Below are positions 9,491 through 46,004 of a stretch of DNA of 64,000 nt, one piece after another; the first letter of the stretch is position 1; each line of letters begins with the position of its first letter. The translations under genes were made by a program, and so were the position numbers. The notes under the pieces were generated by a model. It was not told the origin of the DNA and did no database searches. It saw nothing but the letters and a program-made list of their open reading frames with translations. Origin of the DNA: a virus (Duplodnaviria; Heunggongvirae; Uroviricota; Caudoviricetes); IMG/VR virus record IMGVR_UViG_3300008114_000011; one strand, given 5' to 3'.

Positions 9491-9775
9491 ATGAAAATAT
9501 TAAAACTCTTATTAAAGATATTTGAGGAGAAACCTAAACTAAAAAAAGTTATTGATTATGGAAAGGATCATCCATCAATTGGTGATTTTATCATTTCAAT
9601 TTCAAATGATAGAGGTTTAATTTATGGCAAGAAATATGAAGTAACTCGATTATATTATAATAATGGTGCCATTAATGAACTTGGACATGGTGTTTCTGAT
9701 ATGAACCTATTTGTTTATGAAAGAGATTTATTACAGTACAATAGAGATAAAAAACTAAGAAAACTGGGTTTATAA
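9491..9775 (+). CDS. small protein with RDKKLRKLGL tail
   Basis: family tail. Confidence 0.65.
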   Translation: MKILKLLLKIFEEKPKLKKVIDYGKDHPSIGDFIISISNDRGLIYGKKYEVTRLYYNNGAINELGHGVSDMNLFVYERDLLQYNRDKKLRKLGL

Positions 9776-9780
9776 AAAAA

Positions 9781-11856: not shown

Positions 11857-11950
11857 TATTTGTTTTAGTCAGGTGGCGGAATTGGTAGACGTTATTAGAG
11901 GTAAATCCATGTAGGTAAAATCGAAAGGTTCTCATACAGGTTCGAGTCCT
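11857..11950 (+). tRNA. tRNA-like gene (long-variable-arm type; GGCGGAATTGGTAGAC D-arm, GGTTCGAGTCC T-arm)
   Basis: acceptor AGTCAGG/CCTGACT pairing, canonical D and T arms; anticodon arm not resolved by eye; TAnnTTTG box immediately upstream. Confidence 0.5.
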
Positions 11951-12125
11951 GTCCTGACTACGAGGTTCTAACTATGTGTGGTTTTGTGTATTACATAGGG
12001 TGAGGTTTAGTAAATACCATTTATTGAATAAAAAATACACGCCAGGGCGGAAATGTAACTTAATACAACTGGGTTGACCTTGATCAGGTGTTACGTGAGT
12101 TCAAATCTCAATCTGTCCACTAAAT

Positions 12126-12215
12126 AGTCAGATCGTCTAATGGTAGGACGGCTAGATGACTCAGATACTGATTCTGAAAATTTTGCTTATATAGGTTCGA
12201 ATCCTTTTCTGACTA
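12126..12215 (+). tRNA. tRNA-like gene (D-arm CGTCTAATGGTAGGACG, T-arm GGTTCGAATCC)
   Basis: acceptor AGTCAGA/TCTGACT pairing; long extra arm; anticodon not resolved. Confidence 0.45.
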
Positions 12216-12224
12216 CGAACATGG

Positions 12225-12449
12225 TTGCTAAATAATATGAAAGACGAAATTAGAAAAATCATTGAGAGTGGTAATAATACTGATGATATTGTTGATAATA
12301 TATTAGAGTTATTAAAGAATAAATCAATAGTGGTTTATGATACTCGAGATAATATTGAATGGAAAAAAAATTTAAAACATATATTATTAGATAATAAAAA
12401 GTATGTTTTATATCCGAATAGAGAAAGAATTATAATTACTTGTGTATGA
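12225..12449 (+). CDS. hypothetical small protein
   Basis: ORF directly after tRNA-like gene. Confidence 0.4.
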   Translation: MLNNMKDEIRKIIESGNNTDDIVDNILELLKNKSIVVYDTRDNIEWKKNLKHILLDNKKYVLYPNRERIIITCV

Positions 12450-12506
12450 AGGGTAACTTCATAGATGAAATTAAGTTTGTGGGTATAACAGATTAAAACC
12501 CTCGTT

Positions 12507-12672
12507 AGTCAGGTGGCGGAATATTAACATCCCCGTTCTAGTTGTAAAAATAATGTGGTTAGAATCCACTACGGGGACAATGTTAATTTGGTAGACGCAC
12601 GAGAAGTACAATCGACAAGGCGGCCCTATAAACGGGAACGAGTGTGTACAGGTTCGAGTCCTGTTCTGACTT
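12507..12672 (+). tRNA. tRNA-like gene interrupted in the D-loop by a ~66-nt inverted-repeat insertion
   Basis: GTCAGGTGGCGGAAT[insert]TTGGTAGACGC...GGTTCGAGTCCTGTTCTGACT; insert ATTAACATCCCCGT...ACGGGGACAATGTTAAT. Confidence 0.4.
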
Positions 12673-14866: not shown

Positions 14867-15116
14867 ACTAAGTATTGGAGACTTCGTCAAATATAAATCT
14901 CATCCAAGTATATCACATTTCACTCGTAAATATCATAGAGGTCAGATAATCGATATCATAGAACCTTATACATGTCCTCATACCGGATCTCCTGAACCAG
15001 GTTCGATAACCATAGTAAGAGAAGATGGTTCTATAAACACAGACTATCATTATGTATTCGAATTAGATAGGGAGAAAATGAGGGATGATAAACTAAAGGA
15101 ATTAGGAATATGTTAA
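14853..15116 (+). CDS. small protein with RDDKLKELGI tail
   Basis: family tail. Confidence 0.65.
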   Translation: MMENKLSIGDFVKYKSHPSISHFTRKYHRGQIIDIIEPYTCPHTGSPEPGSITIVREDGSINTDYHYVFELDREKMRDDKLKELGIC

Positions 15117-15388
15117 AAGATATTATGACCGCAAAGCTGATTGCCAAGGAAGACTACTTCCTAACGCTCGACCTGGGATATAAAAATCCCACCCCCAACA
15201 AGGTGCTCACGAGAGGGAAGATCTACGAGTGCGAGGACATCTCCGGGACATCCCCTGATGATTTCCCTGATTATGACAAGTACTACAAGGTGATCGGCGA
15301 CGACGGAAACCGTCTGACCCTTGGCAAAGGAAGGTTCTTCTCCATAGAAGAGACGAGAGAAATGAAGCTGAAAGAAATTGGACTATGA
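15110..15388 (+). CDS. family member with REMKLKEIGL tail, strongly GC-rich codon usage
   Basis: family tail; GC-rich island. Confidence 0.65.
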   Translation: MLKDIMTAKLIAKEDYFLTLDLGYKNPTPNKVLTRGKIYECEDISGTSPDDFPDYDKYYKVIGDDGNRLTLGKGRFFSIEETREMKLKEIGL

Positions 15389-15872
15389 AACTCAAGATAG
15401 GAGATTGGGTCTTGCCGAAGAACCACATACGACAAAGCCCGCACATCAAAATGAAGGTCATAGACACGAGGGTCCTTTATTTGATATTAGATTAGTTGGT
15501 AATTCAATTATGTTTAGACTGAATCCTAATAGTAGAATTAACGATTTAGTTGAAACTATTGGATTCAAAATAAATAAACTATTAATTGATAACATTGCAT
15601 CAAAGAGTAGATTAGAAGTATTGGAATTCAGAAAAGGAAATATTTCAATCAAACTGGAAGCTACTAATTTTGGGAATAGATATGATTTTTTAATAAGTGA
15701 AGATGTTGAATACTCATATAATAGAAATGATATTGAAAAAAGAAGAGATCCAGGATTTAGATATACTGGATCCAGATTAGTCGGTACAGATACCAAAATC
15801 GATTATGGTTATATTAAATATGATTCATTTACATTAAATCTAAGTTCTTCACAAACTGAACCAGATTTTTAA
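15378..15872 (+). CDS. chimeric ORF containing PLFDIRLVGNSIMFRLNPNS segment; coding status uncertain
   Basis: ORF track; no family tail; mosaic. Confidence 0.3.
   Translation: MDYETQDRRLGLAEEPHTTKPAHQNEGHRHEGPLFDIRLVGNSIMFRLNPNSRINDLVETIGFKINKLLIDNIASKSRLEVLEFRKGNISIKLEATNFGNRYDFLISEDVEYSYNRNDIEKRRDPGFRYTGSRLVGTDTKIDYGYIKYDSFTLNLSSSQTEPDF
15385..15495 (+). pseudogene. truncated family member (MKLKIGDWVLPKNHIRQSPHIKMKVID..., homolog of 6697..6948 N-terminus)
   Basis: 36-codon ORF matching GDWV..KPHIKM+IIE then running out of frame into a segment copied from 8832..9032. Confidence 0.4.
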
Positions 15873-23421: not shown

Positions 23422-23715
23422 ATGAAAACACATTTGACTAACCCCAAGACAAATAAAACATTAGTCTTGGACCACAATATAGAACAGACTGTTTTTGATT
23501 CAATATTTAATGATTCAAAAGAATTGTTTTATAATAAACAAGAAGAAATTGAAGAAATATATGGTGTTTCTTTTGATTTATGTGATTTGAAAATTGATGG
23601 TGAATTATTATATGGTTATTTTATCAACGATTTAACTTCAGATGAAATTTTAGAAGAAATATTTAACGATTTAAATAAATTCATCATAGATAATATTGGA
23701 GAAGTAATAAACTAA
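23422..23715 (+). CDS. hypothetical acidic protein
   Basis: ORF. Confidence 0.45.
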   Translation: MKTHLTNPKTNKTLVLDHNIEQTVFDSIFNDSKELFYNKQEEIEEIYGVSFDLCDLKIDGELLYGYFINDLTSDEILEEIFNDLNKFIIDNIGEVIN

Positions 23716-23728
23716 AAGAATTAGGAAT

Positions 23729-23932
23729 ATGGACCAACAAATGAATATTATATGTATAGCTGAAGGTACTTACAAAATAACTAAAGGCAAGACCTACCAA
23801 GTAAACGCACATTCAACTCACCAATATTGGATCATAGATGATGAAGGTCATATGCAATTGATAGGTAAAGACTTTTTCAGAACACAACAAGAAATAAGAG
23901 AAGAGAAGTTAAATGAACTTGGAATAATCTAA
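23729..23932 (+). CDS. family member (NIICIAEGTYKITKGKTYQV, REEKLNELGII)
   Basis: family motifs. Confidence 0.65.
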   Translation: MDQQMNIICIAEGTYKITKGKTYQVNAHSTHQYWIIDDEGHMQLIGKDFFRTQQEIREEKLNELGII

Positions 23933-24177: not shown

Positions 24178-24500
24178 TCTTAAAGGTTAGATACAAACCT
24201 AATCAGCGTCCATCTCCATAATCCAATAGGAGGCAAATATATCTAACCTTCAATGAAACTAAGGCATTGAGCCAAGATGCTGTTAGTGTGCGTTATTTAT
24301 TAGTAGAATGGCTTGAGGGCAACCCTATTATCGAATGTTTAGAGTATTGGAGTAATCTACCTAAATACGAAGGTTTTAAAATAGAACACACTATTTGTCG
24401 TATTACTAATGCACACTAACGTATCGGGGCTTTGCGTAGTAGTCCTTAGTAGAAACTTAAAATTAACCACGACACTTGATAGGGCTATTACACAAAGCCC

Positions 24501-24731
24501 TTGTTATGTGCCGTTAAATTTCACAAAATGAGATACGAAGAAAAAATTATCGAACACACAGAAGAAGAAACAGACTTCTTACCACTCAAAGAAGCAATAG
24601 TGAATATCGAATTTTCTCAAGGTGACTTGATTGAAATGAGAGATATTTTAAGACAATTTAAGCCTAATTTATGGGCAAAAGGATTGTTGTCAGATATAGA
24701 AGCCACACTCGAAAAGGTGTCGGTGTATTAA
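24501..24731 (+). CDS. hypothetical small protein
   Basis: ORF between two GC-richer non-coding segments. Confidence 0.35.
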   Translation: MLCAVKFHKMRYEEKIIEHTEEETDFLPLKEAIVNIEFSQGDLIEMRDILRQFKPNLWAKGLLSDIEATLEKVSVY

Positions 24732-24871
24732 TGGCCCGTTTTGCGGTTTTGTGTTAGGCTACGAAGCCTTGGCATTGAGCGGTCGAGCAGCTTGCACAAA
24801 ACCGCTGTTATACGCTGGCACGGGTAATTTAGTAGGAACTTAATTTGAAACACAAATAAAAATCAAAAGCA

Positions 24872-26004: not shown

Positions 26005-26019
26005 AAAATAGGTTAGGTG

Positions 26020-26093
26020 GGTAGCTCAACTGGAAAGAGCCTCTCATTAAGAGAGAGATTAAGGTTCGAATCCTGTCCCTTCTGACCTATACT
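26020..26093 (+). tRNA. tRNA-like element, possibly degenerate or partial (GTAGCTCAACTGG D-arm, GGTTCGAATCC T-arm, candidate TAA anticodon)
   Basis: D-arm, anticodon hairpin CTCTC-ATTAAGA-GAGAG and T-arm are recognisable but the acceptor stem pairs poorly. Confidence 0.35.
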
Positions 26094-26108
26094 AAACTTC
26101 AGAGAAGA

Positions 26109-26134
26109 TACTAAAATCCGCACGTTTTTTAGTA
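26109..26134 (+). repeat. 26-nt element, orientation A
   Basis: copy 6, directly after the tRNA-like element. Confidence 0.8.
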
Positions 26135-26348
26135 TCTTCTTTAGTTCTGATTGATCCGAGCCGCCCGAAATCACCGATTAAAATTGTTAAAAACCAGGTA
26201 AAAACCCAGTGGATTTTTTACTGAAAAATGACCCTCTGGAAACGTAAGCAGGTCAAGGCTTTCCGAGAGGTGTGTATATACAAATTGGTGCTGAAAATAA
26301 GGCTACTGGTAGAGAAAATGAAATGGCGATAGAGTTTACACAAAAATA

Positions 26349-26374
26349 TACTAAAAAACGACCGGATTTTAGTA
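26349..26374 (-). repeat. 26-nt element variant (TACTAAAAAACGACCGGATTTTAGTA)
   Basis: copy 7. Confidence 0.65.
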
Positions 26375-26389
26375 TGTTGAAAAATAAGG

Positions 26390-26415
26390 TACTAAAAAGT
26401 GTGCGGAATTTAGTA
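26390..26415 (-). repeat. 26-nt element variant (TACTAAAAAGTGTGCGGAATTTAGTA)
   Basis: copy 8. Confidence 0.6.
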
Positions 26416-26571
26416 TTAACTAAAAGTGAAGTATGACTTTGAAATCGTTCCATTCAAATTAAATCAAAACTAATTCAAATTCTATAAACGTAAAATTGTT
26501 CACATTACACTATAATTTATTTTTATTATTCGTATAGAGTTCTTATATTTATTAAATCAAAACGAAAATAT

Positions 26572-26913
26572 ATGAATGTATTTGATCTAAAAAACAAAAA
26601 GGGATATTTCTTTGACGGATTTACACTTCTTTCTGGTTATATCGGTGGTGGTGAATCAGTATATAGTAGATACTTATCAGGTAAAGTTATTTATGACAAA
26701 CCAGTTTGGTTTTCCAGAACTTGGAGACACGGTTATAAATACGATAATTGGGATTTTAGTAATTTTGAATTCATACCATACGATACATTCAAAAACTTAG
26801 AAACTTATCTTAAATTCATTGAGAAAGCAACCTACAATGAAATTAAAATGTACTTCAAATTGAAAGAGGTAATGAAGTCAGAAGACTTTATAGAATGTGG
26901 GATTAAATTATAA
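26572..26913 (+). CDS. hypothetical protein
   Basis: ORF. Confidence 0.45.
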   Translation: MNVFDLKNKKGYFFDGFTLLSGYIGGGESVYSRYLSGKVIYDKPVWFSRTWRHGYKYDNWDFSNFEFIPYDTFKNLETYLKFIEKATYNEIKMYFKLKEVMKSEDFIECGIKL

Positions 26914-27144
26914 AATAATATGAAACAGATTAATTTATTACTGGATAAGATTTCTAACATTCTTCTGAGTTAGAGGTTATAGTTTATACCAAGGGTATAG
27001 ATTTATTAAATGAGATGTATTAAAATTTTTTTACCTAACGGTAAGAAGTAGTTATTTTTTATTTATATTTGTAGAAATATCTCACTATGAAAGGACACAA
27101 TAGTTATGTGGGAATTAGGTTTATTTAATGGTAATTTATAAGTT

Positions 27145-27609
27145 ATGGAAGGTAGATTATTTAAGGTTGATGATGTTTGGAGGTTAGTCAATTCAAAGAA
27201 TTCAATAATAGCAACGAGTGATTTAGAGTATCAGAGAGCTTTTAGGTGTTATAAACTATCTAATGATAATTGTGAGTTTATATATGATTATGAAAAAATA
27301 TACAATGATTTTAAATTAAATAATCAGTATTGGTTTGCTAAACTTAAAGATGGTAGTATTTTATCTTGTGGATATGGATTAGTTGAAAACGAATTTAATG
27401 GTGATACTTGGTTTGAAATTGGTAAAATAATACCAGATGAGTTGAAAAGTATAGATGGGTATTATACTTTTGATGAGACTCATGATTTAATTAATAATAA
27501 TGGTATAAAAATTGGTAAATTAAGTGATATTGGATATAATAGTCATCCAGATGAAAATAGTTTTGTTCTGATACCTAAATCTGATATTATTGAAACTTAT
27601 TTCAAATAG
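27145..27609 (+). CDS. hypothetical protein
   Basis: ORF; TAnnTTTG box at ~27070. Confidence 0.45.
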   Translation: MEGRLFKVDDVWRLVNSKNSIIATSDLEYQRAFRCYKLSNDNCEFIYDYEKIYNDFKLNNQYWFAKLKDGSILSCGYGLVENEFNGDTWFEIGKIIPDELKSIDGYYTFDETHDLINNNGIKIGKLSDIGYNSHPDENSFVLIPKSDIIETYFK

Positions 27610-28019
27610 CGAAGCTTTCATCAATTTTATTACTTATAACGTCTGATGATAAATTATCGTTTTAATGTTGTTTATCATTTGTTATGTGTAGGTTTTTAGT
27701 TAATTAAAAAAATATAAATATGAAAAAGATAATAGAAGAAATAGATTTTTTGTGGAAAGGTGATAGAAGTATGTTAATTACTATGTGGTTATGTATATTG
27801 TTAGCACTTGTAGTTTTAACTGAACTTGGTTTTAACATATACTTCACTTTTTTTAATTAATGTTAAGAAAACTTACACATAACGGTTGAGAATATAAGCA
27901 GTTATTAACGAAAACTTAAATTGAAACACAGAACTTAATTATTAACAGACAACTTTTATTTGAAAGTAATGAAATAATTGCTTATATTTTTTGTTAGTTT
28001 TAGTATTTAATTTTAATTC

Positions 28020-28274
28020 ATGATTATGAAAAAAACAGATTTGATTTCTTATTTAAAAATATTAGGTGGTTTATCACTTACATTTCCATTATCTCATGCG
28101 TTTTTTGCACTTGACTTTGGGTTAGTAAAAGGTGGATTTATAGCACTTGGTTTATATTTTTTGATGATGTTAATTGCAATACCAATGTTTAACTACCTTG
28201 AATATGGTAAATTTTGGTATTGGGTAAGTGATAAACATAGAGATAGTTTTGATAAAATTAAATATTGGAACTAA
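28020..28274 (+). CDS. small membrane protein
   Basis: two hydrophobic helices. Confidence 0.4.
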   Translation: MIMKKTDLISYLKILGGLSLTFPLSHAFFALDFGLVKGGFIALGLYFLMMLIAIPMFNYLEYGKFWYWVSDKHRDSFDKIKYWN

Positions 28275-28353
28275 CGGTTGGTTGTATATGTAGGTTTTTT
28301 AATTCTAACCTTTAATATATACTATGACTTAATAAAAAACTTGCATATACACC

Positions 28354-28803
28354 TTGTTATATACCGTAAAAATGTGGGATGGTAAAAAATTAAAATTAGA
28401 TATGAAACATAAAATAAAAACAACTCTACGAGAGTTTATTAGGGAAGAACTTGAAAAATTAGATTATTTTTCAACTAATATAGATGGACATCGTTTTGAA
28501 TTGTTGAAAGATGGTGAAGTGGTAGGTTGGACAATGTTTAGTAATGTCATTAAAAATAATAAATTCAATAATCAACCACATATAAGTTTGTGGGATTTAA
28601 TGATAAAAGAACAATATAGAAAGAAAGGATATTCTAAAATATTAATGGAAAAAGTTTTAGAATATTTAAGATACAGTGTAGATATTGTGGATTTACAGGT
28701 TATGGAACATAATAAACCTGCAGTAAATTTATATAAGAGTTTTGGATTTGAAATTTATCATAATACTGGACAAGGTGTTCTTTATATGTCAAAAAAATTT
28801 TAA
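28354..28803 (+). CDS. GNAT-family N-acetyltransferase
   Basis: acetyl-CoA motif A Q-YRKKGYSKILMEKVLEY and motif B NKPAVNLYKSFGF. Confidence 0.6.
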   Translation: MLYTVKMWDGKKLKLDMKHKIKTTLREFIREELEKLDYFSTNIDGHRFELLKDGEVVGWTMFSNVIKNNKFNNQPHISLWDLMIKEQYRKKGYSKILMEKVLEYLRYSVDIVDLQVMEHNKPAVNLYKSFGFEIYHNTGQGVLYMSKKF

Positions 28804-28920
28804 TTTTTTTAAGAAGGGTGTAAAATTTTTATTGTATATAACGGTTGAGAATATGTTTCGTTTCAATGATAAATATTCTTTGTTAGATTGCGTTTCAATG
28901 TGATCTAACGATACTCAGAT

Positions 28921-28948
28921 ATATTTAGGTTTTCTTTTTAATATATAC
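28921..28948 (+). promoter_or_regulatory. local promoter-like repeat ATATTTAGGTTTTCTTTTTAATATATAC
   Basis: near-identical copy at 29227-29258, related copies at ~28295 and ~27690, each ~25-30 nt upstream of an ATG. Confidence 0.45.
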
Positions 28949-28968
28949 TTAAAAATAATAAACGAGTT

Positions 28969-29217
28969 ATGAATAAATTAACACACCTTAAAAGATTTAA
29001 CGAGTCAGAAGAAAACTTGAATATATCTGATGTTAGTGAGAGTAGATGGAATATGATTCCAGATAGATGTGAATATAATGGTAAAATATACAGAATTCTC
29101 AATATAGAACTACAAGGTGGATATTTTACACTACAAGATTTAGAAGCAGAAAGAGGTGACATTCAAGTTTTAGATGATATAGATATGGATAAATGTATTC
29201 CAGTCTATTCTCACTAA
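28969..29217 (+). CDS. small protein with conserved N-terminal leader (..FNESEENLNISDVSES)
   Basis: leader shared with 29276..29644. Confidence 0.5.
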   Translation: MNKLTHLKRFNESEENLNISDVSESRWNMIPDRCEYNGKIYRILNIELQGGYFTLQDLEAERGDIQVLDDIDMDKCIPVYSH

Positions 29218-29226
29218 CGGTCACAG

Positions 29227-29258
29227 ATATATTTAGGTTTTCTTTTTAATATATAAAC
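29227..29258 (+). promoter_or_regulatory. local promoter-like repeat (copy 2)
   Basis: see 28921-28948. Confidence 0.45.
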
Positions 29259-29275
29259 TAAAATAATTTACAAAG

Positions 29276-29644
29276 ATGAAAGGTAAAAATAACATACAAA
29301 GTTTCGAAGAGTTTAAAGAAAACTTGAATATATCTGATGTTAGTGAGAGTAAAACTATTGGAGATATAATAGATGATAACACTAAAGATTCTAATGGATT
29401 TTTTTGGGGTGTATTTTCTGATACTATGAATTTTTTCATTGTTGATAAGGGGTTTAATGTTATATTTGAAACACCTGCGTTTTTTAATGGAAAATGGACA
29501 AATGATGTAAAAGAAGCAATGAAAAAATATGGAATAGACGACAACAAATCAAGAATGAGAACTGATAATAACATAGAAAAATTAAAAAAATCCATTAAAC
29601 TAGAATATGATTTATGGAAAATGTATAGTGATAGAACTAAATAG
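29276..29644 (+). CDS. small protein with conserved N-terminal leader (..FEEFKENLNISDVSES)
   Basis: leader shared with 28969..29217. Confidence 0.5.
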   Translation: MKGKNNIQSFEEFKENLNISDVSESKTIGDIIDDNTKDSNGFFWGVFSDTMNFFIVDKGFNVIFETPAFFNGKWTNDVKEAMKKYGIDDNKSRMRTDNNIEKLKKSIKLEYDLWKMYSDRTK

Positions 29645-29693
29645 TTTTATTCTCACTAATGGTTTGTGTATATGTATAGTTAAATTTTTTAAT

Positions 29694-29873
29694 ATGAAAG
29701 TTAAATGTATAAAAAACAGTATTGATTCAATGACAATACAAATGCCTTGGATAAAGGTAGGAGAAATTTATGAAGTAGTTGGTGAGCATTGGTCAAGGGA
29801 AGATTATTTTGCAGTAAAAGGTGAAGGCGGTTGTATTGCGTTTTATAGGAAGAGTTGGTTTGAAAAAATTTAA
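29694..29873 (+). CDS. MKVKCI-type family member lacking the C-terminal tail
   Basis: N-core MKVKCIKNS..KVGEIYEVV; internal ATG of ORF 29607..29873. Confidence 0.45.
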   Translation: MKVKCIKNSIDSMTIQMPWIKVGEIYEVVGEHWSREDYFAVKGEGGCIAFYRKSWFEKI

Positions 29874-29969
29874 TTATTCATATACGCTGTTAGCAAATCG
29901 TTTTAATGTTTGCTAACTAGATTATATCTCTAAATCAACATTAATAATTAATTTACAAATACTTAACAT

Positions 29970-30770
29970 ATGAAAAAGACAAATTATTACGAAATTTGTA
30001 ATCAAAAATTGAAGTATTTAAACTATTCAGATAGGACTATCAAGTCCTATCTTTATTATATTAATCAATTTTTAGAAAATACTAAAATACCACCAACCAG
30101 ATTAACAGCAACAGATTTCCAACAATATCTCAATAATTACAATTTTACCTCCACCTCACAACAAAATCAAGTCATAAACTCAATAAGATTCCTATACAAA
30201 GAATCACTTAATAAAAAATATGATAAGGTTGATTTTAAAAGACCTAGATCTGAAAAGAAACTACCAAAAGTAATTGATGGCGATTATATCAAATCTAAAC
30301 TTTCTAAAATAGAAAACCTTAAGCATAAAACTATACTTACTTTAACCTATTCAGTTGGTTTAAGAGTTTCCGAAATAATAAATCTTAAAATAGAAGATAT
30401 TGACTCCAAAAGAATGATTATTCATATTAAAAATGCTAAAGGTAAAAAAGATAGAATTGTACCACTTTCAGAAAACGTACAAAATCTAATAAAAATATAT
30501 TCAGAAAAATATACACCAAAAGAATATCTTTTTAATGGTCAATCCACAAACAAATATTCAATACAATCCTGTCAAAATATCTATAAAAAATATATTGATG
30601 AAAATTCATCTATACATACCCTCAGACACTCAGCCTTTACCAACCTCTTAGAAAATGGAACAGATCTAAGAATAATACAGAAAATAGCAGGTCACTCATC
30701 CACCAAAACAACAGAGATATATACACACGTTTCTAATCAACTTTTAAATAAAGTTAATCTACCAATTTAA
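29970..30770 (+). CDS. tyrosine recombinase/integrase (XerC/D-like)
   Basis: C-terminal catalytic block HTLRHSAFTNLLENGTDLRIIQKIAGHSSTKTTEIYTHV (R..H-x-x-R..Y). Confidence 0.85.
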   Translation: MKKTNYYEICNQKLKYLNYSDRTIKSYLYYINQFLENTKIPPTRLTATDFQQYLNNYNFTSTSQQNQVINSIRFLYKESLNKKYDKVDFKRPRSEKKLPKVIDGDYIKSKLSKIENLKHKTILTLTYSVGLRVSEIINLKIEDIDSKRMIIHIKNAKGKKDRIVPLSENVQNLIKIYSEKYTPKEYLFNGQSTNKYSIQSCQNIYKKYIDENSSIHTLRHSAFTNLLENGTDLRIIQKIAGHSSTKTTEIYTHVSNQLLNKVNLPI

Positions 30771-30794
30771 CTTTTCTTTGAAAAGAATTATTAA

Positions 30795-31256
30795 ATGATT
30801 ATATTTGTATATAATCACACACATAATATGATAAAGTTTGTTAAGAAGTCGAGTTCGGGGTCTACAAAAGAGGTGGATTTAATATTATCTGATGTTAGTA
30901 ATTGTAAATCATTAGCATCTTCTATCTTATTAAGAAAATATTTAATGGAGATGGATGTGGATTATATAGAGAAGATGGATTTGATTAATAAACGTATTGA
31001 GTTTAGTAGAAGTTATTTAGAGAGTGTTTTATCTCGTGATGGTGATATTAAGTGTACTTATTGTGGTAAGGGAGATTTGGTTATTGAGTATGATGGGATG
31101 CGTGTCAAAGAAAGTATAAAGGCTACGATTGATCATATCGTTCCTGTATCAAGAGGAGGAGGTAGGTTTGATGTTAGTAATATAACTCCATGTTGTGGTG
31201 AGTGTAATGGTAAGAAGGGTAATAAGTCATTAGATGATTTTCTAAAGTCGATTTAA
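30795..31256 (+). CDS. HNH endonuclease
   Basis: CTYCGK...IDHIVPVSRGGGRFDVSNITPCCGECNGKKGNK. Confidence 0.7.
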   Translation: MIIFVYNHTHNMIKFVKKSSSGSTKEVDLILSDVSNCKSLASSILLRKYLMEMDVDYIEKMDLINKRIEFSRSYLESVLSRDGDIKCTYCGKGDLVIEYDGMRVKESIKATIDHIVPVSRGGGRFDVSNITPCCGECNGKKGNKSLDDFLKSI

Positions 31257-31257
31257 T

Positions 31258-31650
31258 ATGAATAAGATCACATTTTGTTTATCGGATAAGGCTGAATCAT
31301 TTTCATTTGATTTTGATTACTTTACTTTATTGGATGATGGTTCCATAACTTATAGTGGTGTAAATAGACATACTGGTTTTAGCACTAACGAGTTTTATGA
31401 TATTGAGAATATTTTTAAACAAAATGAGAGGTTTGATTTAATTGTATTGAGATGTTTTAGAATTAGAATAAATACTGTAAATAGGGTTATACATGGAGAG
31501 ATTACAAGTTTTGAGAGTTCTGGTCTTAGTAAGGTAAATTTAACTATTAAACCTAAGTTTATTTGGGATCTCGATCTTGGTGATGAGTTTTACAAACATT
31601 TACCAGCAATCAGAAGAGAAATAAAATTAAATAATATTATAGGAATATGA
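31258..31650 (+). CDS. hypothetical protein with RREIKLNNIIGI tail
   Basis: family tail. Confidence 0.55.
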   Translation: MNKITFCLSDKAESFSFDFDYFTLLDDGSITYSGVNRHTGFSTNEFYDIENIFKQNERFDLIVLRCFRIRINTVNRVIHGEITSFESSGLSKVNLTIKPKFIWDLDLGDEFYKHLPAIRREIKLNNIIGI

Positions 31651-31946
31651 CATTAGAAGAATTAAGAGATCGTCCTTTAGAAGAAAAGGTAGATTATATA
31701 TGTGACTACGTTATCTCTCATGGATTGGGACCAAAGTTTAGAAATATTTCTTTCCGTGGAGTAATTGTTGAATATAAGGATATATTTGATGCTATTAGAG
31801 AAGTTAATAGGAGTTTAAGACCAGCTGAATATCATACCGATTGGTATCGATTAGGTGCTAATGTATTTAAAAATGAATTAGTTAAGGGAGTTTTAAATCA
31901 TGAATTGATATTCCCACGTATAAAAGAAGAAATATCAAAGTTATGA
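31647..31946 (+). CDS. hypothetical protein, tandem paralog A
   Basis: MTLEELRDRPLEEKVDYI...VKGVLNHELIFPRIKEEISKL. Confidence 0.55.
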   Translation: MTLEELRDRPLEEKVDYICDYVISHGLGPKFRNISFRGVIVEYKDIFDAIREVNRSLRPAEYHTDWYRLGANVFKNELVKGVLNHELIFPRIKEEISKL

Positions 31947-32242
31947 CATTAGAAGAGTTAAGAGAAAAGTCTTTAGAAGAAAAGGTGAATTATATTTTTG
32001 ATTATGTTACGTCTTATGCTCGTGAAAGAGAAGATAGGTTTAAAGATATACCTTTACGTGTATTAATTGATGAGTATGATGATATAATTGATGTTTTCAG
32101 AGAAGTTAATTATGGTCTAAGAAGATTTTGGAGTCAACCCGGATATCGAGCAAGTATTGAATATAAGAGAGAAGTAGTTAAGGGAGTTTTAAATCATGAA
32201 TTGTTATTCCCACGTATAAAAGAAGAAATATCAAAGTTATGA
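31943..32242 (+). CDS. hypothetical protein, tandem paralog B
   Basis: near-identical N- and C-termini to 31647..31946. Confidence 0.55.
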   Translation: MTLEELREKSLEEKVNYIFDYVTSYAREREDRFKDIPLRVLIDEYDDIIDVFREVNYGLRRFWSQPGYRASIEYKREVVKGVLNHELLFPRIKEEISKL

Positions 32243-43300: not shown

Positions 43301-43897
43301 ATGAATATCTTTAAAAGACTTTACAATTACTTTTTAGAAAAAGTTGAGAAACAAAAAGAAATAATTGAGGAAAAAGAAATAGAACGCAAGGTAGAAAAAG
43401 CTCTTAACAATGTATGTAAAAGTTGTAATGGTATTGGAATAGTAGATCATGAAAATGCTGAGTTTCGAACTGTTAAACATTGGTGTAACTGTAAAGTGCA
43501 TGAAAATGGTAGACCACCAGGTGATGCTTGGTCATTTGATATTAGATGGAGAGAGTGTTATAAGATGATTATAATGTCTAATTCTGAATTTGATAAACCA
43601 AACATGACATCTATTTCCGAAATTAAAACATCTCTACCAAGACCGGAACTAGTATTTGAACCTTATATAAAACTTTATATACATGAAGATAATAAAGTAG
43701 TAAAGATTGTTACATTTGAGAAAAAATATGGGTATAATAGATTCTTAGGTTTAGGAAATTATAAACCAGAAGTATCAAATACAAAAAAAGTTTTTTATTG
43801 GGATCATATTGATGTTCAATCGTGGATCACAGATGAAGATAATAAAATTTTTCTTAGTGAATTAAGAGATATTAAATTAAAAGAACTCGGAATATAG
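43301..43897 (+). CDS. hypothetical protein with CxxC..CNC zinc site and RDIKLKELGI tail (ORF-track start 43259 lies inside terminator)
   Basis: family tail; ATG at 43301. Confidence 0.55.
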   Translation: MNIFKRLYNYFLEKVEKQKEIIEEKEIERKVEKALNNVCKSCNGIGIVDHENAEFRTVKHWCNCKVHENGRPPGDAWSFDIRWRECYKMIIMSNSEFDKPNMTSISEIKTSLPRPELVFEPYIKLYIHEDNKVVKIVTFEKKYGYNRFLGLGNYKPEVSNTKKVFYWDHIDVQSWITDEDNKIFLSELRDIKLKELGI

Positions 43898-43920
43898 TTT
43901 ATTTTCCATATCTTTGTTAT

Positions 43921-44130
43921 ATGGAAAAAATAAACAAAATATTGAACAACGGCTTTAGTGATATAAAAGTATTTTATGAAAAAGTTGATGATGAATATAT
44001 TGTTTATCAAAAGTATAATTTTTTCTGGGTGAAATTTAAAAGTAAAGTTATTTCTTGTAGAAATTTTGAAACTTTAAAAGAAGTAGATAATAGATGTAAT
44101 TTAGGACTATTTGAGAAATCCTCAAAATAG
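43921..44130 (+). CDS. hypothetical small protein
   Basis: ORF. Confidence 0.35.
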   Translation: MEKINKILNNGFSDIKVFYEKVDDEYIVYQKYNFFWVKFKSKVISCRNFETLKEVDNRCNLGLFEKSSK

Positions 44131-44152
44131 ATAATTAATATCATGATGTTAC

Positions 44153-44410
44153 ATGAAAGTTAAATGTATTTCCAATCAAAAGAGATGGGGTGGGTCAGTT
44201 AGTACCTACCCTTTAGTAGTTGGTAAAGTATATAATGTTATATCAACTGGTCACGTACCATTTGTTTCGAGAAGATATGATGATTATAGTGGACCTTTCT
44301 ATAAAGTCACTAATGAAGATGGTGTAGAGGGTAATTATAGTGATGATATTATGAGACCATTAAATAAGTCTGAAATGAGAGACGAATTGTTAAAAGAGTT
44401 GGGTATATGA
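44153..44410 (+). CDS. MKVKCI-type member with RDELLKELGI tail
   Basis: family motifs. Confidence 0.65.
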   Translation: MKVKCISNQKRWGGSVSTYPLVVGKVYNVISTGHVPFVSRRYDDYSGPFYKVTNEDGVEGNYSDDIMRPLNKSEMRDELLKELGI

Positions 44411-44625
44411 TTGGAATTATTTGGGTTTGTGTTGACAATACTGCTAATGAACATAGACTAACTGTTGGTAAAAAATATACCGAGATTTTAAATAAATTTG
44501 CTGATCTTGATTGTATTTTAATAAAAGATGATAATGGTATGATATCAGAGGTTTATCAACCTGGTTTCTTTATTAAAATTGATGAATGGAGAGATAGTCA
44601 GTTAAGAAAAATTGGAATAAAATGA
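44407..44625 (+). CDS. family member (LTVGKKYTEI, EWRDSQLRKIGIK)
   Basis: family motifs. Confidence 0.65.
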   Translation: MIGIIWVCVDNTANEHRLTVGKKYTEILNKFADLDCILIKDDNGMISEVYQPGFFIKIDEWRDSQLRKIGIK

Positions 44626-44858
44626 TAAAAGTAATTTGTATAAATGAACCAGATATTTCTTATACAAGAAATAAAAAGTTAGAATTGAATAAACAATACA
44701 ACGCTAAAACCAATGAGGTTTCTTTAGGTTTTTCATATGGTATTGTTTATATGTATAAGATATTTGATGGTAATAACTATCTTGGTGAGTATTATAGACG
44801 TGATTTTCTCACTGTTGAAGAATATCGTGATAAAAAATTAGAATCAATTTTAGACTAA
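44622..44858 (+). CDS. MIKVICI-type member (tail RDKKLESILD)
   Basis: family motifs. Confidence 0.6.
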   Translation: MIKVICINEPDISYTRNKKLELNKQYNAKTNEVSLGFSYGIVYMYKIFDGNNYLGEYYRRDFLTVEEYRDKKLESILD

Positions 44859-45163
44859 TGAAATTCTTCACTGATTATAAAAATTTAAAATGTAACTATG
44901 AACAATTTGAGTTCATAAAACCTTATCTTTATGCTGATGGTTGGGATTGGTATAATGGTGATATATTCTTGTATGACGAATCAAATGAAAATATTGATGA
45001 TTATCTTGATGATTTAGTTATGATACAACCACATTATAAATATGAAGAAGATAAAAATCATAAATTCTTTATTCCTTATTATGAAGATGAAATTGAATAC
45101 TTAAAATTTGAAAAAGATGTTAAAGAAATAATCAGAGAAATTAAATTAAATGAATTATTATGA
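44858..45163 (+). CDS. acidic small protein with REIKLNELL tail
   Basis: family tail. Confidence 0.55.
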   Translation: MKFFTDYKNLKCNYEQFEFIKPYLYADGWDWYNGDIFLYDESNENIDDYLDDLVMIQPHYKYEEDKNHKFFIPYYEDEIEYLKFEKDVKEIIREIKLNELL

Positions 45164-45411
45164 GCCCGTATAAAATATCTGGTGTAGAAAGGCGAAAACT
45201 CAAAAAAGAACTTTCTGAATTAAAATACTTTGTTAAAATGTTTTGGCACTTCGAAGATATAGATAGAGTTTATGGTGGTGGTTTAACAGACAAAGAATGT
45301 GATGATTTAATAGAAGAAAAGAATAAAGAAATAGAAAAGTTAGAAAGTTTATTAAATGAACCTTCTGATCAAATAGTTAGAGATTTTAAATTAAATGAAT
45401 TAGGTATATGA
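45160..45411 (+). CDS. small protein with RDFKLNELGI tail
   Basis: family tail. Confidence 0.6.
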   Translation: MSPYKISGVERRKLKKELSELKYFVKMFWHFEDIDRVYGGGLTDKECDDLIEEKNKEIEKLESLLNEPSDQIVRDFKLNELGI

Positions 45412-46004
45412 TAGTTTTAGTATTGTTATTGATAGCATCACAAGTTTTTCTATTTGTGAAATATTCAGAGTTATTAAAAGTAAAGAAAGAAAGTGAAGAG
45501 GTTATTGAAAAGTATAAAGATGTTAAGATAGTTGCTAATATACCTGAAGAGCCTCAATATGAAGATATCGAACCTGATTATAAAACATTTTATAATTTTA
45601 TGGAGAACATAAAGTTAGAAAACTGGAAGGTAAAGATTGATGATGATTATTGTACGGATACTTATTCATATTGGACGGTTTTGATTGAGTCACATGATGG
45701 TGAATATTGTATGTATATTTCATTAAATTGTTACGATGGTAAACAAGTTGAATTTTCAACTTGTCGAATTGGTAGAACACAATTAGGTGTCGGTAATACA
45801 GAACATCATCTATACATAAAAAGTACAACAAAACACCAAATTAAGAAAGATGTTACTATATTTGCATGGGATTATATTATCAAATATTATGAAGATAAAA
45901 ATCAGAAAATATTTGATAAAATAAAAGATAATATTGATGTTATCAATAAGAGTATGAAAACATTAAATCGTAGTAATAGATTGGATGGTATTTTAAAATT
46001 TTAA
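45408..46004 (+). CDS. membrane-anchored hypothetical protein
   Basis: N-terminal TM. Confidence 0.45.
   Translation: MIVLVLLLIASQVFLFVKYSELLKVKKESEEVIEKYKDVKIVANIPEEPQYEDIEPDYKTFYNFMENIKLENWKVKIDDDYCTDTYSYWTVLIESHDGEYCMYISLNCYDGKQVEFSTCRIGRTQLGVGNTEHHLYIKSTTKHQIKKDVTIFAWDYIIKYYEDKNQKIFDKIKDNIDVINKSMKTLNRSNRLDGILKF

What the first reader, a model, noticed from the sequence alone, without database searches (positions are those of the whole stretch)
26020..31256. Tyrosine recombinase and HNH endonuclease downstream of a degenerate tRNA-like element
A XerC/D-like tyrosine recombinase (29970..30770, intact R..HxxR..Y block) and an HNH endonuclease lie ~4 kb from a tRNA-like element at 26020-26093. 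That element has a recognisable D-arm, anticodon hairpin and T-arm, but its acceptor stem pairs poorly, so it may be degenerate or partial. tRNA-3'-end-like fragments occur nearby. Phage-type integrases commonly target tRNA 3' ends and leave partial duplicates, so this may mark an integration module or an att site within the element.
Basis: partly seen in the sequence, partly recalled or inferred. Interest (0 to 1): 0.5.

Follow-up and report, generated by a model that had tools for sequence, protein, structure and literature searches.

The report
Integron-like gene-cassette array in a phage
The recombinase flagged here does not look like a tRNA-targeting prophage integrase: it sits at the end of an integron-like array of small gene cassettes separated by hairpin sites, a layout shared by hundreds of related large phages and by cultured Polaribacter phages, which suggests phages have their own gene-capture platform.

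Summary
The recombinase (29970-30770) and the HNH gene (30795-31256) are real. The tRNA-like element is real but marginal, at 26015-26084 (Rfam 30.3 bits against a threshold of 29). It has no second copy of its 3' end in the window and no counterpart in related phages.

The recombinase instead ends an array (about 24.4-29.9 kb) of small genes separated by strand-specific hairpin sites of the form ...YTAAC|G-spacer-hairpin-T-GTTAK... In 80 related viral loci there are 313 such sites on the recombinase strand and 5 on the other. Sites lie 246 upstream and 12 downstream of the gene, and the stems covary.

Each cassette's first bases are complementary to its own last bases (193 of 323 cassettes against 4.3% by chance), which is the integron cassette hallmark. 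The same cassette occurs in different contexts, with breakpoints exactly after TAAC. Ten cultured Polaribacter Freya phages carry a 40%-identical integrase. The six whose junctions were read hold different cassette sets, all fused at ...YAAC|ACCCC, 47 nt before the integrase gene.

The enzyme is closest to XerA and integron integrases but lacks the integron-specific extra domain, and cassette genes have inverted polarity. Verdict: a phage-native integron variant, inferred from sequence only. The tRNA and the HNH gene are bystanders.

The parts
24417..24506 (+). Distal long hairpin site: TAAC-GTATC-(about 20-bp imperfect stem)-TT-GTTA
   Evidence: Own scan. Single-strand DNA fold is -16.2 kcal/mol on + against -14.0 on -.
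24729..24810 (+). Degenerate site (TAAT variant): TAAT-GGCC..GCGGTTTTGTG...CACAAAACCGC-T-GTTA
   Evidence: Read directly from the sequence.
26015..26084 (+). Marginal tRNA-like gene, 'Leu(UAA)', without a long variable arm. It lies within the array span but has no detectable link to the recombination sites.
27036..27054 (+). Remnant site: TAAC-GGT..-GTTA with the hairpin deleted
   Evidence: Sub-threshold covariance-model hit at 27026-27064 and sequence reading.
27145..27609 (+). Cassette gene, 154 aa, no family match
27637..27684 (+). Short-class hairpin site with the conserved loop TCGTTTTAATG
   Evidence: Covariance-model hit at 27627-27694, 75.8 bits, E 5e-16.
27720..27860 (+). Cassette gene, 46 aa, probably membrane protein. 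The cassette start GTTATGTGTAGG is complementary to its end ..TTACACATAAC.
27880..27996 (+). Long-class hairpin site (19-bp stem)
28020..28274 (+). Cassette gene, 84 aa membrane protein. Its stop codon lies inside the TAAC of the next site.
28272..28359 (+). Long-class hairpin site
   Evidence: Sequence. Fold is -11.1 kcal/mol on + against -9.5 on -.
28372..28803 (+). Cassette gene: GNAT acetyltransferase carrying the shared leader-like motif MKHKIKTTLREFIRE
   Evidence: Pfam PF00583 1.1e-15.
28839..28885 (+). Degenerate short-class site (loop TCGTTTCAATG)
   Evidence: Covariance-model hit at 28829-28895, 54.6 bits.
28882..28909 (+). 'Empty cassette' hairpin: GTTAGAT-loop-ATCTAAC
   Evidence: Sequence.
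28906..29035 (+). Extra-long site (24-bp stem) whose loop holds the start codon and leader of ORF 28969-29217
   Evidence: (I16).
28969..29217 (+). Cassette gene, 82 aa, paralogue of the next one
29215..29342 (+). Extra-long site (22-bp stem) whose loop holds the start of ORF 29276-29644
29276..29644 (+). Cassette gene, 122 aa
29656..29892 (+). Giant site (TAAT variant). The arms GTGTATATG / CATATACGC enclose the 59-aa ORF 29694-29873. This parse is inferred.
   Evidence: Sequence reading and the gene call in L001.
29889..29917 (+). Integrase-proximal hairpin GTTAGCAAA-TCGTTTTAATG-TTTGCTAAC. The variable/conserved junction falls after 29917.
   Evidence: (33.7 bits).
29918..29969 (+). Conserved integrase-proximal region (TAGATTATATC...), the candidate attI-like insertion site
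   Evidence: Conserved to the right of TAAC in 59 of 61 non-redundant loci. In the six Freya genomes whose junctions were read (Freya_1, _5, _6, _8, _9, _10) cassettes are inserted at the equivalent junction.
29970..30770 (+). Short tyrosine recombinase related to XerA and integron integrases, the presumed cassette recombinase
30795..31256 (+). HNH endonuclease, part of the finding but not of the system. Probably a free-standing selfish nuclease.

Best explanation
The recombinase at 29970-30770 is the integrase of a phage-borne, integron-like cassette platform.

Upstream of it lies an array of small genes. Each gene is a discrete cassette of the form [G-spacer-hairpin-T-GTTAKxxxx ... gene ... 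x'x'x'x'YTAAC]. When one strand folds, the end of a cassette (..YTAAC), the hairpin and the start of a cassette (GTTAK..) form an imperfect attC-like stem-loop.

The integrase is inferred to cut and exchange strands at or just after TAAC. That would excise cassettes as circles, re-insert them at the conserved junction about 55 nt upstream of its own gene (an attI equivalent), and shuffle them within and between phages.

The cargo is accessory genes, including orphan DNA methylases, Mom, RNA-repair enzymes and acetyltransferases, so the platform plausibly serves rapid turnover of counter-defence functions.

Shown by sequence analysis: the architecture, the covariation, the cassette-specific end complementarity, the nucleotide-sharp junctions, the cassette differences between near-identical phages and cultured isolates, and the kinship of the enzyme to XerA and integron integrases.

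Inferred only: that this enzyme performs the reaction, that the substrate is folded single-stranded DNA, and what the cassettes do.
For: 1. Strand and position.
- The 64-kb window has only three significant covariance-model hits. All are on + and within 2.4 kb upstream of the integrase.
- In 80 integrase-oriented viral loci all 173 model hits are on +.
- My own scan gives 313 sites on + against 5 on -.
- Sites lie 246 upstream and 12 downstream of the integrase start.

2. Structure. In the 12-bp upper helix, 10 pairs show compensatory double changes and 99.1% of cells are paired. No shuffle out of 500 reached the observed values for cells paired, double-change cells or covariation score.

3. 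Integron hallmark.
- The variable 8 nt flanking TAAC and GTTA within one site match at chance level (2.96 of 8).
- The start and end of the same cassette are complementary in 193 of 323 cassettes, and in 85% of cassettes shorter than 300 nt. Chance gives 4.3%.
- The same pattern is seen by eye in the bacterial array L260 next to a homologous recombinase.

4. Mobility.
- 477 cassettes fall into 308 clusters, and identical cassettes occur with different neighbours.
- Similarity ends exactly after TAAC and resumes 1-4 nt after the previous TAAC.
- The hairpin on the 5' side travels with the gene.
- L029 and L042 are 97% identical in backbone but carry 100%-identical cassette blocks in a different order.

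5. Junction next to the integrase.
- 59 of 61 loci have ..TAAC|TAnnATATA within 120 nt of the start codon.
- In the cultured Polaribacter phages Freya_1, _5, _6, _8, _9 and _10, the junction upstream of the integrase was read directly. They carry different cassette sets, from none in Freya_1 to 12 small genes in Freya_10, always fused at ..YAAC|ACCCCTATAAC.
- Freya_1 and Freya_10 were compared whole and are collinear apart from this insertion.
- For Freya_2, _3, _4 and _7, only genome length and integrase position show intermediate amounts of upstream sequence.

6. Enzyme.
- NCBIfam ranks XerA/integron integrase (184.9 bits) and integron integrase TIGR02249 (158 bits) above XerD and XerC.
- In PDB the best matches are XerA and then VchIntIA.
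- Cellular homologues (40-49% identity) sit next to arrays with canonical GGCTAAC...GTTAGCC sites.

7. Cargo. Among the 149 longest cassette proteins are 5 N6/N4 methylases, 1 C5 methylase, Mom, an RNA ligase, an exoribonuclease and GNATs. Most have no family match.
Against: - No experiment shows recombination.
- The enzyme lacks the roughly 48-residue integron-specific domain that canonical IntI uses to read extrahelical bases. The query has 35 aa where VchIntIA has 83. It also falls below every curated family cut-off.
- Cassette genes lie on the same strand as the TAAC-G reading of the sites (295 of 308). In cellular arrays they lie on the opposite strand. The hairpins are therefore transcribed in sense and could also, or instead, act as RNA elements. 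Conserved G.T wobbles fit RNA as well as single-stranded DNA.
- Repeated elements allow shuffling by homologous recombination.
- The window's own array is partly degenerate (TAAT variants, a deleted hairpin).
- Loci were de-duplicated only by exact sequence, so the P values are inflated by relatedness.
- Only 10 kb on either side of the integrase was available for relatives. L032 has sites 8-10 kb downstream, so arrays elsewhere in these genomes cannot be excluded.
Confidence: 0.75

Rival explanations
1. The hairpins are regulatory elements such as terminators, RNA-processing sites or mRNA stabilisers, combined with promoter cassettes like the T4 PeSL elements. Genes would be shuffled by homologous recombination between these repeats. 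The recombinase would do something unrelated.
For: - The hairpins lie on the coding strand between co-oriented genes and show G.T (G.U) wobbles.
- Many cassettes have a Bacteroidota-like TAnnTTTG box between the hairpin and the start codon.
- Hybrid hairpins whose two arms come from different types exist (L044, L018).
- The plus strand is only modestly more stable than the minus strand.
Against: - This does not explain why the start of each cassette is complementary to its own end while the two flanks of one hairpin are not.
- It does not explain breakpoints at the same nucleotide after TAAC regardless of neighbouring homology.
- It does not explain the 246:12 polarity toward the integrase, although genes downstream are also on +.
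- In cellular arrays next to homologous recombinases the same asymmetric TAAC-G strand is antisense to the genes, so the site polarity follows the recombination system and not transcription.
Confidence: 0.13
2. One reading: a temperate-phage integration module in which the integrase inserts the phage into a host tRNA gene, and the tRNA-like element at about 26.0 kb is or contains the att site.
For: - Integrase and a tRNA-like gene lie 4 kb apart.
- The nearest annotated phage homologues are labelled 'integrase' and were taken as a sign of temperate potential (PMC8776804).
Against: - There is no repeat of the tRNA 3' end in the window.
- The tRNA region is absent from all relatives except the same phage.
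- The integrase is conserved in 212 viral contigs of up to 362 kb.
- The best match on a sizeable contig among 185,579 species genomes is 49% identical, so no prophage copies were seen.
- The conserved sequence next to the integrase is the cassette junction, not a tRNA.
Confidence: 0.04
3. The recombinase is a Xer/Cre-like resolvase that acts on one site upstream of its gene to resolve replication multimers or circularise the genome. The cassette array would be coincidental.
For: - The protein has Xer-like size and domain architecture.
- A single strongly conserved sequence lies about 55 nt upstream of the gene.
- Contig ends pile up there.
Against: - Contig ends are explained by the repeated sites.
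- The conserved sequence is exactly the point where cassettes differ between isolates.
- The conserved junction has no visible inverted-repeat arms around a central spacer, as dif or lox sites have.
- The two roles could coexist.
Confidence: 0.05

Closest known systems
Integrons (IntI integrase, attI, attC gene cassettes; for example class 1 and the Vibrio cholerae chromosomal integron)
   Same: - A tyrosine recombinase sits at one end of an array of co-oriented cassettes.
- Sites are imperfect hairpins of 40-130 nt with ..YTAAC and GTTAK.. at the base, an unpaired spacer and a variable tip.
- Structure is conserved more than sequence.
- Cassette ends are complementary to each other.
- The crossover maps to the AAC/GTT box.
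- New cassettes join at a conserved site next to the integrase gene.
- Along the TAAC-G strand the order is array, junction, then integrase in sense, which is the canonical geometry.
   Different: - The integrase lacks the IntI-specific extra domain.
- Cassette genes are on the strand that is 'bottom' in canonical cassettes, so the hairpin lies 5' of its gene.
- Hairpin tips can hold a start codon or a whole small gene.
- Many cassettes seem to carry their own promoter-like box.
- The host replicon is a virus, and the system is conserved across a viral clade.
attC clusters without integrase (CALINs) and captured integrons in phage genomes (Qi et al. 2023, PMC9892861)
   Same: attC-type sites and orphan DNA methylase cassettes occur in virulent phages, including a Polaribacter phage.
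   Different: Those were 2-4 canonical attC sites without an integrase, or bacterial integrons captured by temperate phages. They were interpreted as acquisitions from bacteria. Here the integrase is phage-encoded and clade-wide, with up to 14 sites per 10 kb.
XerA-type 'site-specific tyrosine recombinase/integron integrase' (NCBIfam NF040815) next to attC-like arrays in Ignavibacteriota, Nitrospirae, Desulfitobacterium, Bacteroidota and DPANN-archaeal MAGs
   Same: They are the closest cellular homologues (40-49% identity). They also lack the IntI extra domain and also sit next to TAAC-hairpin-GTTA arrays.
   Different: The array lies downstream of the recombinase, on the opposite strand, with cassette genes in the canonical polarity. 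The phage protein scores below the family cut-off (184.9 against 220 bits).
XerCD-mediated integration of the folded single-stranded CTX-phi genome
   Same: It is a precedent for a Xer-type recombinase without an IntI domain recombining a folded single-stranded hairpin site.
   Different: CTX-phi uses host enzymes, a single site and whole-phage integration, with no cassettes.
T4-type PeSL mobile regulatory cassettes in hyperplastic regions (from my own knowledge of Arbiol et al. 2010)
   Same: Repeated stem-loop elements flank small accessory genes in large lytic phages, and the genes are shuffled in modules.
   Different: PeSLs are promoter-plus-stem-loop repeats thought to act through homologous recombination. 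They have no dedicated recombinase, no cassette-specific end complementarity and no single insertion junction.

Membership tests
Integron | Integrase carries the IntI-specific additional domain around patch III (the basis of IntegronFinder's second profile) | tested here: not met
   In the alignment to VchIntIA (2a3v), query residues 172-206 (35 aa) face IntIA residues 175-257 (83 aa). TIGR02249 matches in two stretches at 158 bits, below the cut-off of 265.
Integron | Tyrosine recombinase with a complete catalytic set | tested here: met
   R132, K157-160, H216, R219, H242 and Y251 are present. PF00589 matches at 8.4e-35.
Integron | attC-type sites: imperfect hairpins with inverse core ..YAAC and core GTT.. 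at the base, an unpaired spacer and a variable tip, conserved in structure rather than sequence | tested here: met
   The consensus is YTAAC-G[TG][CT][CT]-stem-loop-stem-T-GTTA[TG]. Covariation is shown and the three length classes. The published attC covariance model was not run because no tool offers it.
Integron | The start of each cassette is complementary to the inverse core at its own end (evidence of a circular intermediate) | tested here: met
   193 of 323 cassettes match at 6 or more of 8 positions, against 4.3% for random pairs. Flanks within one site are at chance level.
Integron | Array adjoins the integrase gene through a conserved insertion site (attI) | tested here: met
   The junction is conserved in 59 of 61 loci. 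Freya_1, _5, _6, _8, _9 and _10 differ by cassettes inserted exactly there.
Integron | Cassette gene lies 5' of its attC, on the top strand, expressed from a common promoter Pc | tested here: not met
   Genes are on the TAAC-G strand in 295 of 308 clusters. The 5' hairpin travels with the gene. Cellular control arrays show the opposite polarity. Pc was not tested.
Integron | Integrase-dependent excision and insertion of cassettes | not testable with these tools
   This needs a recombination assay or detection of cassette circles.
Temperate-phage integration module targeting a tRNA | att core shared with, or duplicated from, the 3' end of a tRNA gene | tested here: not met
   There is no second copy of the 25-nt 3' segment at up to 3 mismatches in the window. 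The host genome is unknown.
Temperate-phage integration module targeting a tRNA | Integrated copies (prophages) in host genomes | tested here: not met
   The best match on a sizeable contig in one genome per 185,579 species is 49% identical. One 67% partial match lies on a 2-kb contig.
XerC / XerD / XerA chromosome-dimer resolvases | Score at or above the curated family cut-off | tested here: not met
   XerA scores 184.9 against 220, XerD 147.7 against 329.6, and XerC 145.3 against 335.
tRNA (Rfam RF00005) | Reaches the gathering score; for tRNA-Leu, a long variable arm | tested here: inconclusive
   The score is 30.3 bits against 29, with mismatches in the acceptor and T stems. There is no long variable arm, whereas tRNA-Leu(taa) genes in relatives are 82-88 nt.
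HNH endonuclease (PF01844) | HNH motif domain above the gathering score | tested here: met
   42.8 bits against a cut-off of 21.4.

The most novel reading that the evidence does not exclude
A clade of Bacteroidota phages, from 44-kb Freya-type siphoviruses to contigs over 300 kb, carries its own integron. A short IntI-like recombinase without the canonical extra domain would capture, excise and reorder cassettes with inverted gene polarity. This would create a shared, fast-moving pool of counter-defence and accessory genes that is exchanged between phages. A subset of cassettes may supply proteins with a common N-terminal leader for packaging into the capsid.
Probability: 0.6. Interest if true: 0.9.

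Novelty: new variant of a known kind. Interest (0 to 1): 0.85.

Why it matters
Integrons are regarded as bacterial (and recently archaeal) gene-capture devices. Phages were known only to carry stray attC sites or captured bacterial integrons.

A phage-native platform would mean that viruses use the same logic to shuffle accessory and anti-defence genes. It would help explain the hyperplastic small-gene regions of large phages. It would also show that recombination at attC-type sites does not require the IntI-specific domain.

The idea is directly testable, because cultured Polaribacter phage isolates already in GenBank differ by cassettes at the predicted junction.

It also exposes a blind spot in integron finders that require the IntI domain. 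The same kind of short recombinase sits next to attC-like arrays in many bacterial and archaeal MAGs.

Tried and rejected
- Megablast of 24-33 kb against 50,697 phage records found no match.
- A search for direct repeats of the tRNA 3' end found none.
- An Rfam E-value scan of 25-32 kb found only the tRNA.
- Idea that the pile-up of contig ends marks a genome terminus or an invertible segment: rejected, because the repeats explain the assembly breaks and all sites share one orientation.
- Idea that the hairpins are insertions with target duplications: rejected, because the two flanks of one site are unrelated.
- Idea that tRNAs sit inside the hairpins: 0 of 209 ARAGORN tRNAs do. One tRNA-like structure in L050 does sit at a hairpin tip.
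- HNH as a conserved partner of the integrase: rejected.
- The palindromes ATACTAAAATCCGCACGTTTTTTAGTAT around the tRNA as recombination sites: they are specific to this phage and not array-like, so I left them unexplained.
- PHROG and Pfam scans of the large ORFs found no structural genes in the window.
- Six literature searches found no description of this system.
- Structure prediction was not run, because an alignment built from locus-derived sequences is not accepted and the sequence alignment already settles the missing domain.

Full report
**What the window is**

- The 64-kb window is densely packed with small, mostly unannotatable genes, nearly all on the + strand up to about 33 kb.
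- It encodes several homing endonucleases, an intein-like protein, NAMPT and a PARG-type enzyme.
- One protein has a Bacteroidota type-IX secretion sorting domain.
- Its NAMPT is 46% identical to that of the 225-kb Tenacibaculum phage PTm1.
- The exact integrase protein occurs on a 79-kb JGI metagenome contig.
- Relatives at 58-83% identity occur on 212 IMG/VR viral contigs of up to 362 kb, many with clusters of 20 or more tRNA genes.
- I therefore treat the window as the accessory-gene region of a large phage of a Bacteroidota host. This is an inference, because no structural gene lies in the window.

**Checking the observation**

- The tyrosine recombinase (29970-30770) and the HNH endonuclease (30795-31256) are as described, with all catalytic residues present.
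- The tRNA-like element is real but marginal, and lies at 26015-26084.
  - ARAGORN calls tRNA-Leu(UAA), and Rfam gives 30.3 bits against a threshold of 29.
  - It lacks the long variable arm that genuine tRNA-Leu(taa) genes of related phages have (82-88 nt).
  - The 3' segment has no second copy in the window.
  - The whole 25.4-26.6 kb region has no counterpart in any relative other than the same phage.
  - The other T-loop-like 11-mers lie 13-14 kb away, in a separate cluster of odd tRNA-like genes.

**What led away from the tRNA**

Among contigs of 30 kb or more that carry a related integrase, 15 of 58 end within 2.5 kb upstream of the gene. Uniform placement predicts 2.1, and only 3 end within 2.5 kb downstream.

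Aligning the upstream regions showed a sharp boundary about 55 nt before the start codon. Everything to the right of a TAAC is conserved (TAAC|TAttATATAt...), and everything to the left differs between loci. Three contigs begin at or within 3 nt of that TAAC. Of 61 non-redundant loci, 59 have this junction.

**The repeated element**

Left of the junction lies a repeated, strand-specific structured element:

5'-(AWT)nnnnYTAAC - G[TG][CT][CT] - stem - loop - stem - T - GTTA[TG]nnnnAGT-3'

- The short class has an 11-12-bp stem of freely varying but always complementary sequence, and a conserved loop TCGTTTTAATG.
- Longer classes have 70-130 nt between TAAC and GTTA and stems of 20-24 bp. They show G.T wobbles at recurrent positions on the + strand in the examples inspected.
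- On a 49-sequence alignment, 10 of the 12 upper-stem pairs show double compensatory changes and 99.1% of cells pair. No shuffle out of 500 reached the observed values for cells paired, double-change cells or covariation score.
  - Caveat: I selected sequences with 11 or more of 12 pairs. However, 231 of the 258 raw pattern matches already had 12 of 12.
- A covariance model finds three significant copies in the whole window with filters off, all on + and all within 2.4 kb upstream of the integrase.
- The same model finds 173 copies in 80 integrase-oriented loci, all on +.
- A simple structural scan finds 313 sites on + against 5 on -. Sites lie 246 upstream and 12 downstream of the integrase, and their density rises toward it.
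- Of 46 loci with at least 1.5 kb of upstream sequence, 41 have at least one strict site, and there are up to 14 sites in 10 kb.

**Evidence that these are recombination sites and not just terminators**

1. The 8 variable bases next to TAAC and next to GTTA within one site match at chance level (2.96 of 8). In contrast, the bases after GTTA at the start of a cassette are the reverse complement of the bases before TAAC at the end of the same cassette.
   - This holds in 193 of 323 unique cassettes, and in 85% of those under 300 nt, against 4.3% for random pairs.
   - It is the classical signature of integron cassettes, which pass through a circular form carrying one complete site.
   - The same pattern is visible by eye in the bacterial array L260.
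2. The 477 cassettes fall into 308 sequence clusters, and the same cassette recurs with different neighbours.
   - In every such case similarity ends exactly after ...TAAC on the right. On the left it begins 1-4 nt after the preceding TAAC.
   - The hairpin 5' of a gene stays with it when the left neighbour changes (identity 0.79-1.0 in 5 of 6 cases).
   - The hairpin 3' of it does not (0.41-0.61 in 6 of 8 cases).
   - The unit is therefore [G-spacer-hairpin-T-GTTA...gene...TAAC], with the crossover at or just after TAAC.
3. Recent events are visible.
   - L029 and L042 are 97.2% identical across the integrase and 3.8 kb downstream, yet they carry 100%- and 99.9%-identical cassette blocks in swapped order.
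   - L029 and L030 are 99.6% identical from -2.1 kb onward and differ in the more distal cassettes.

**Cultured phages show the same thing**

- The closest annotated relatives of the integrase (40% identity) are the Polaribacter phages Freya_1 to Freya_10, isolated on one host strain.
- In these ten genomes the integrase lies between 83 and 4,180 nt from the record start, and genome length rises from 43,978 to 48,920 bp.
- Freya_1 and Freya_10, compared whole, are collinear. They differ by 12 small genes (4,942 bp) inserted immediately upstream of the integrase in Freya_10.
- I read the junction in six genomes. It is always ...YAAC|ACCCCTATAACAACAATAAG, 47 nt before the integrase coding sequence, with a different cassette end on the left each time:

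| Isolate | Sequence left of the junction |
|---|---|
| Freya_1 | TTATTGTTTACAAC |
| Freya_5 | CAATTGTTACCAAC |
| Freya_6 | AAATTACTACCAAC |
| Freya_8 and Freya_10 | TAATTGTTGCTAAC |
| Freya_9 | CGCTTTTTACCAAC |

- Freya_9 equals Freya_10 minus the 307-nt integrase-proximal cassette.
- Freya_8 lacks the first 902 nt of the block that Freya_10 carries before the integrase.
- Freya_6 has a cassette that is absent from Freya_10.
- The left end of the Freya_10 block reads ...TTTACAAC|GGATATGG.
- The original paper read the integrase only as a sign of temperate potential (PMC8776804).

**The enzyme**

- The top NCBIfam matches are 'XerA / integron integrase' (184.9 bits) and 'integron integrase' (158.1 bits). 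XerD (147.7) and XerC (145.3) follow. All are below their curated cut-offs.
- In PDB the best matches are XerA (1.7e-38) and then the Vibrio integron integrase (2.3e-30).
- The match to the Vibrio enzyme comes in two pieces that leave 35 query residues opposite 83 residues. The integron-specific extra domain is therefore missing.
- In one genome per 185,579 species, the best homologues on sizeable contigs reach only 40-49% identity, which argues against prophage copies.
- At least 17 of those cellular loci carry TAAC-hairpin-GTTA arrays with canonical boxes such as GGCTAAC...GTTAGCC.
  - These arrays have 41 sites on the strand opposite the recombinase and 2 on the same strand, almost all downstream of its stop codon.
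  - Three of these array-adjacent recombinases were scanned. All pass the XerA/integron-integrase model and match TIGR02249 in two stretches below its cut-off, which indicates that they too lack the extra domain.

**Geometry**

- In the cellular arrays the cassette genes lie on the strand opposite to the TAAC-G reading. By the textbook convention this makes TAAC-G the bottom strand.
- In the phage, reading along that strand gives array, junction, then integrase in sense. This is the canonical integron layout.
- However, the cassette genes are on that same strand in 295 of 308 clusters. Gene polarity relative to the site is therefore inverted, and the hairpin precedes its gene.
- In the window, hairpin tips even contain the start codon and leader of two paralogous genes, and possibly one whole 59-aa gene.

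**The window's own array**

- It runs from about 24.4 to 29.9 kb. It has two distal sites, a 2.2-kb stretch without recognisable sites that holds three ORFs and the tRNA-like gene, and then nine sites or remnants between 27.0 and 29.9 kb (see the parts list).
- Several sites are degenerate.
- Cassette end complementarity is visible for the cassettes at 27681-27883, 27993-28275, 28356-28842, 29032-29218 and 29339-29659.

**Cargo**

- Most cassette proteins have no family match.
- Among the 149 longest are five N6/N4 DNA methylases, a C5 methylase, Mom, an RNA ligase, an exoribonuclease, a HAD RNA-repair domain, a PARP-like domain, phosphatases and GNATs. The window itself has a GNAT.
- This set is compatible with counter-defence functions, but that reading is an inference.

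**The HNH gene**

- It follows the integrase only in this phage, which is 1 of 60 non-redundant loci.
- The Freya phages also have an HNH gene after the integrase, but the two proteins are not detectably homologous.
- I regard it as one of the window's many free-standing nucleases.

**Rivals**

- The strongest rival is that the hairpins are RNA or regulatory elements shuffled by homologous recombination. They are transcribed in sense, and a regulatory role may well coexist. However, this rival does not account for the cassette-specific end complementarity, the single-nucleotide junctions, the polarity toward the integrase, or the homology to arrays in which the same strand is antisense to the genes.
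- The tRNA-att reading and a pure Xer/Cre-type resolvase role are weakly supported (see the rival entries).

**Limits**

- Nothing here is experimental.
- Only 10 kb on either side of the integrase was available for relatives.
- Loci are phylogenetically related and were de-duplicated only by exact sequence, so the P values overstate independence.
- My site scan is heuristic.
- The published attC model could not be run.
- The literature library is partial. Six searches found only canonical integrons or integrase-less attC clusters in phages (PMC9892861) and nothing that describes this system.

Noticed in passing
window 11860-12670: A cluster of three or four aberrant tRNA-like genes shares the 5' end GTCAGGTGGCGGAAT and the 3' end GGTTCGAGTCCTGTYCTGAC. 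Rfam calls only one of them (12126-12215, 90 nt, 40.3 bits) and ARAGORN calls none. The copy at about 12503-12670 has a roughly 60-nt hairpin insertion in the D-loop that itself contains a T-arm-like motif.
   Followed up: partly
window 3267-9777, 15077-15390, 23700-23930, 43865-45413: About 20 small ORFs end with the same roughly 35-nt sequence. It encodes a C-terminal peptide R-[DE]-x-K-L-x-E-L-G-I, followed by ATATGA, in which the stop codon overlaps the next start codon (families D1-D6). This is either a large paralogous family or a shared C-terminal tag. It is unexplained.
   Followed up: no
window 20240, 22731, 23030, 23942, 25469, 26103, 26343, 26385: A 28-nt near-palindrome, ATACTAAAATCCGCACGTTTTTTAGTAT, occurs in both orientations in intergenic regions, mostly 35-150 nt upstream of ORFs. 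One copy lies immediately after the tRNA-like gene. It is specific to this phage, although L015 has a similar core. It may be an operator, promoter or terminator.
   Followed up: partly
cassette proteins in L013, L022, L025, L030, L064, L071, L077, L089, L093, L167, L171, L186 and others; window 28402-28450, 28969-29040, 29276-29345: Some 7-12% of otherwise unrelated cassette proteins start with a shared leader, either MSKEMREQIDRVKNWKQFLNE or MKDLKQFIKTTIREFLNE (18 of 258 by a strict motif, against 0.8% background). From memory it resembles the T4 capsid-targeting sequence MKTYQEFIAE with its L-x-E protease site. The leader might direct these proteins into the capsid.
   Followed up: partly
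loci L004-L083 (IMG/VR contigs): Assembly breaks pile up just upstream of the integrase. Of 58 contigs of 30 kb or more, 15 end within 2.5 kb upstream, against 2.1 expected and 3 downstream. Three contigs start at or within 3 nt of the junction TAAC. The repeated sites, and probably population heterogeneity, explain this.
   Followed up: yes
L206, L210, L219, L223, L229, L238, L260, L267 and others (bacterial and archaeal genomes and MAGs): Short XerA-like recombinases that appear to lack the IntI extra domain sit directly upstream of canonical-looking attC arrays, for example nine sites in the Ignavibacteriota MAG locus L260. Tools that require the IntI-specific domain would probably score these as integrase-less arrays.
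   Followed up: partly
L283 (Cellulophaga phage Ingeline_1) about 5770-5967: Upstream of its integrase lie a GTTAG...CTAAC hairpin (TTACGTGTTAG-13 nt-CTAACACGTAA) and then ATTGTTGCTAAC|ACCC. This is the same kind of junction as in the Freya phages.
   Followed up: partly
L057 19564-19655: ARAGORN calls a suppressor-type tRNA with anticodon UUA (reading the UAA stop codon) in a related phage contig, next to a tRNA-Met.
   Followed up: no
window 56025-57749: A 574-aa phage protein carries a type-IX secretion C-terminal sorting domain (Por_Secre_tail, 1.5e-09). This points to a Bacteroidota host and to a secreted or surface-exposed phage-encoded protein.
   Followed up: no
window 31647-32242: Two tandem 99-aa paralogues (76-91% nucleotide identity in blocks) lie just downstream of the HNH gene (families D16, D18, D19).
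   Followed up: no
L050 2195-2342: A long hairpin site has a tip that contains tRNA-like T-arm motifs. The inner stem (GGGAG/CTCCC) doubles as an acceptor-like stem, and an 'empty cassette' hairpin follows it. The arrangement occurs twice in that locus.
   Followed up: no
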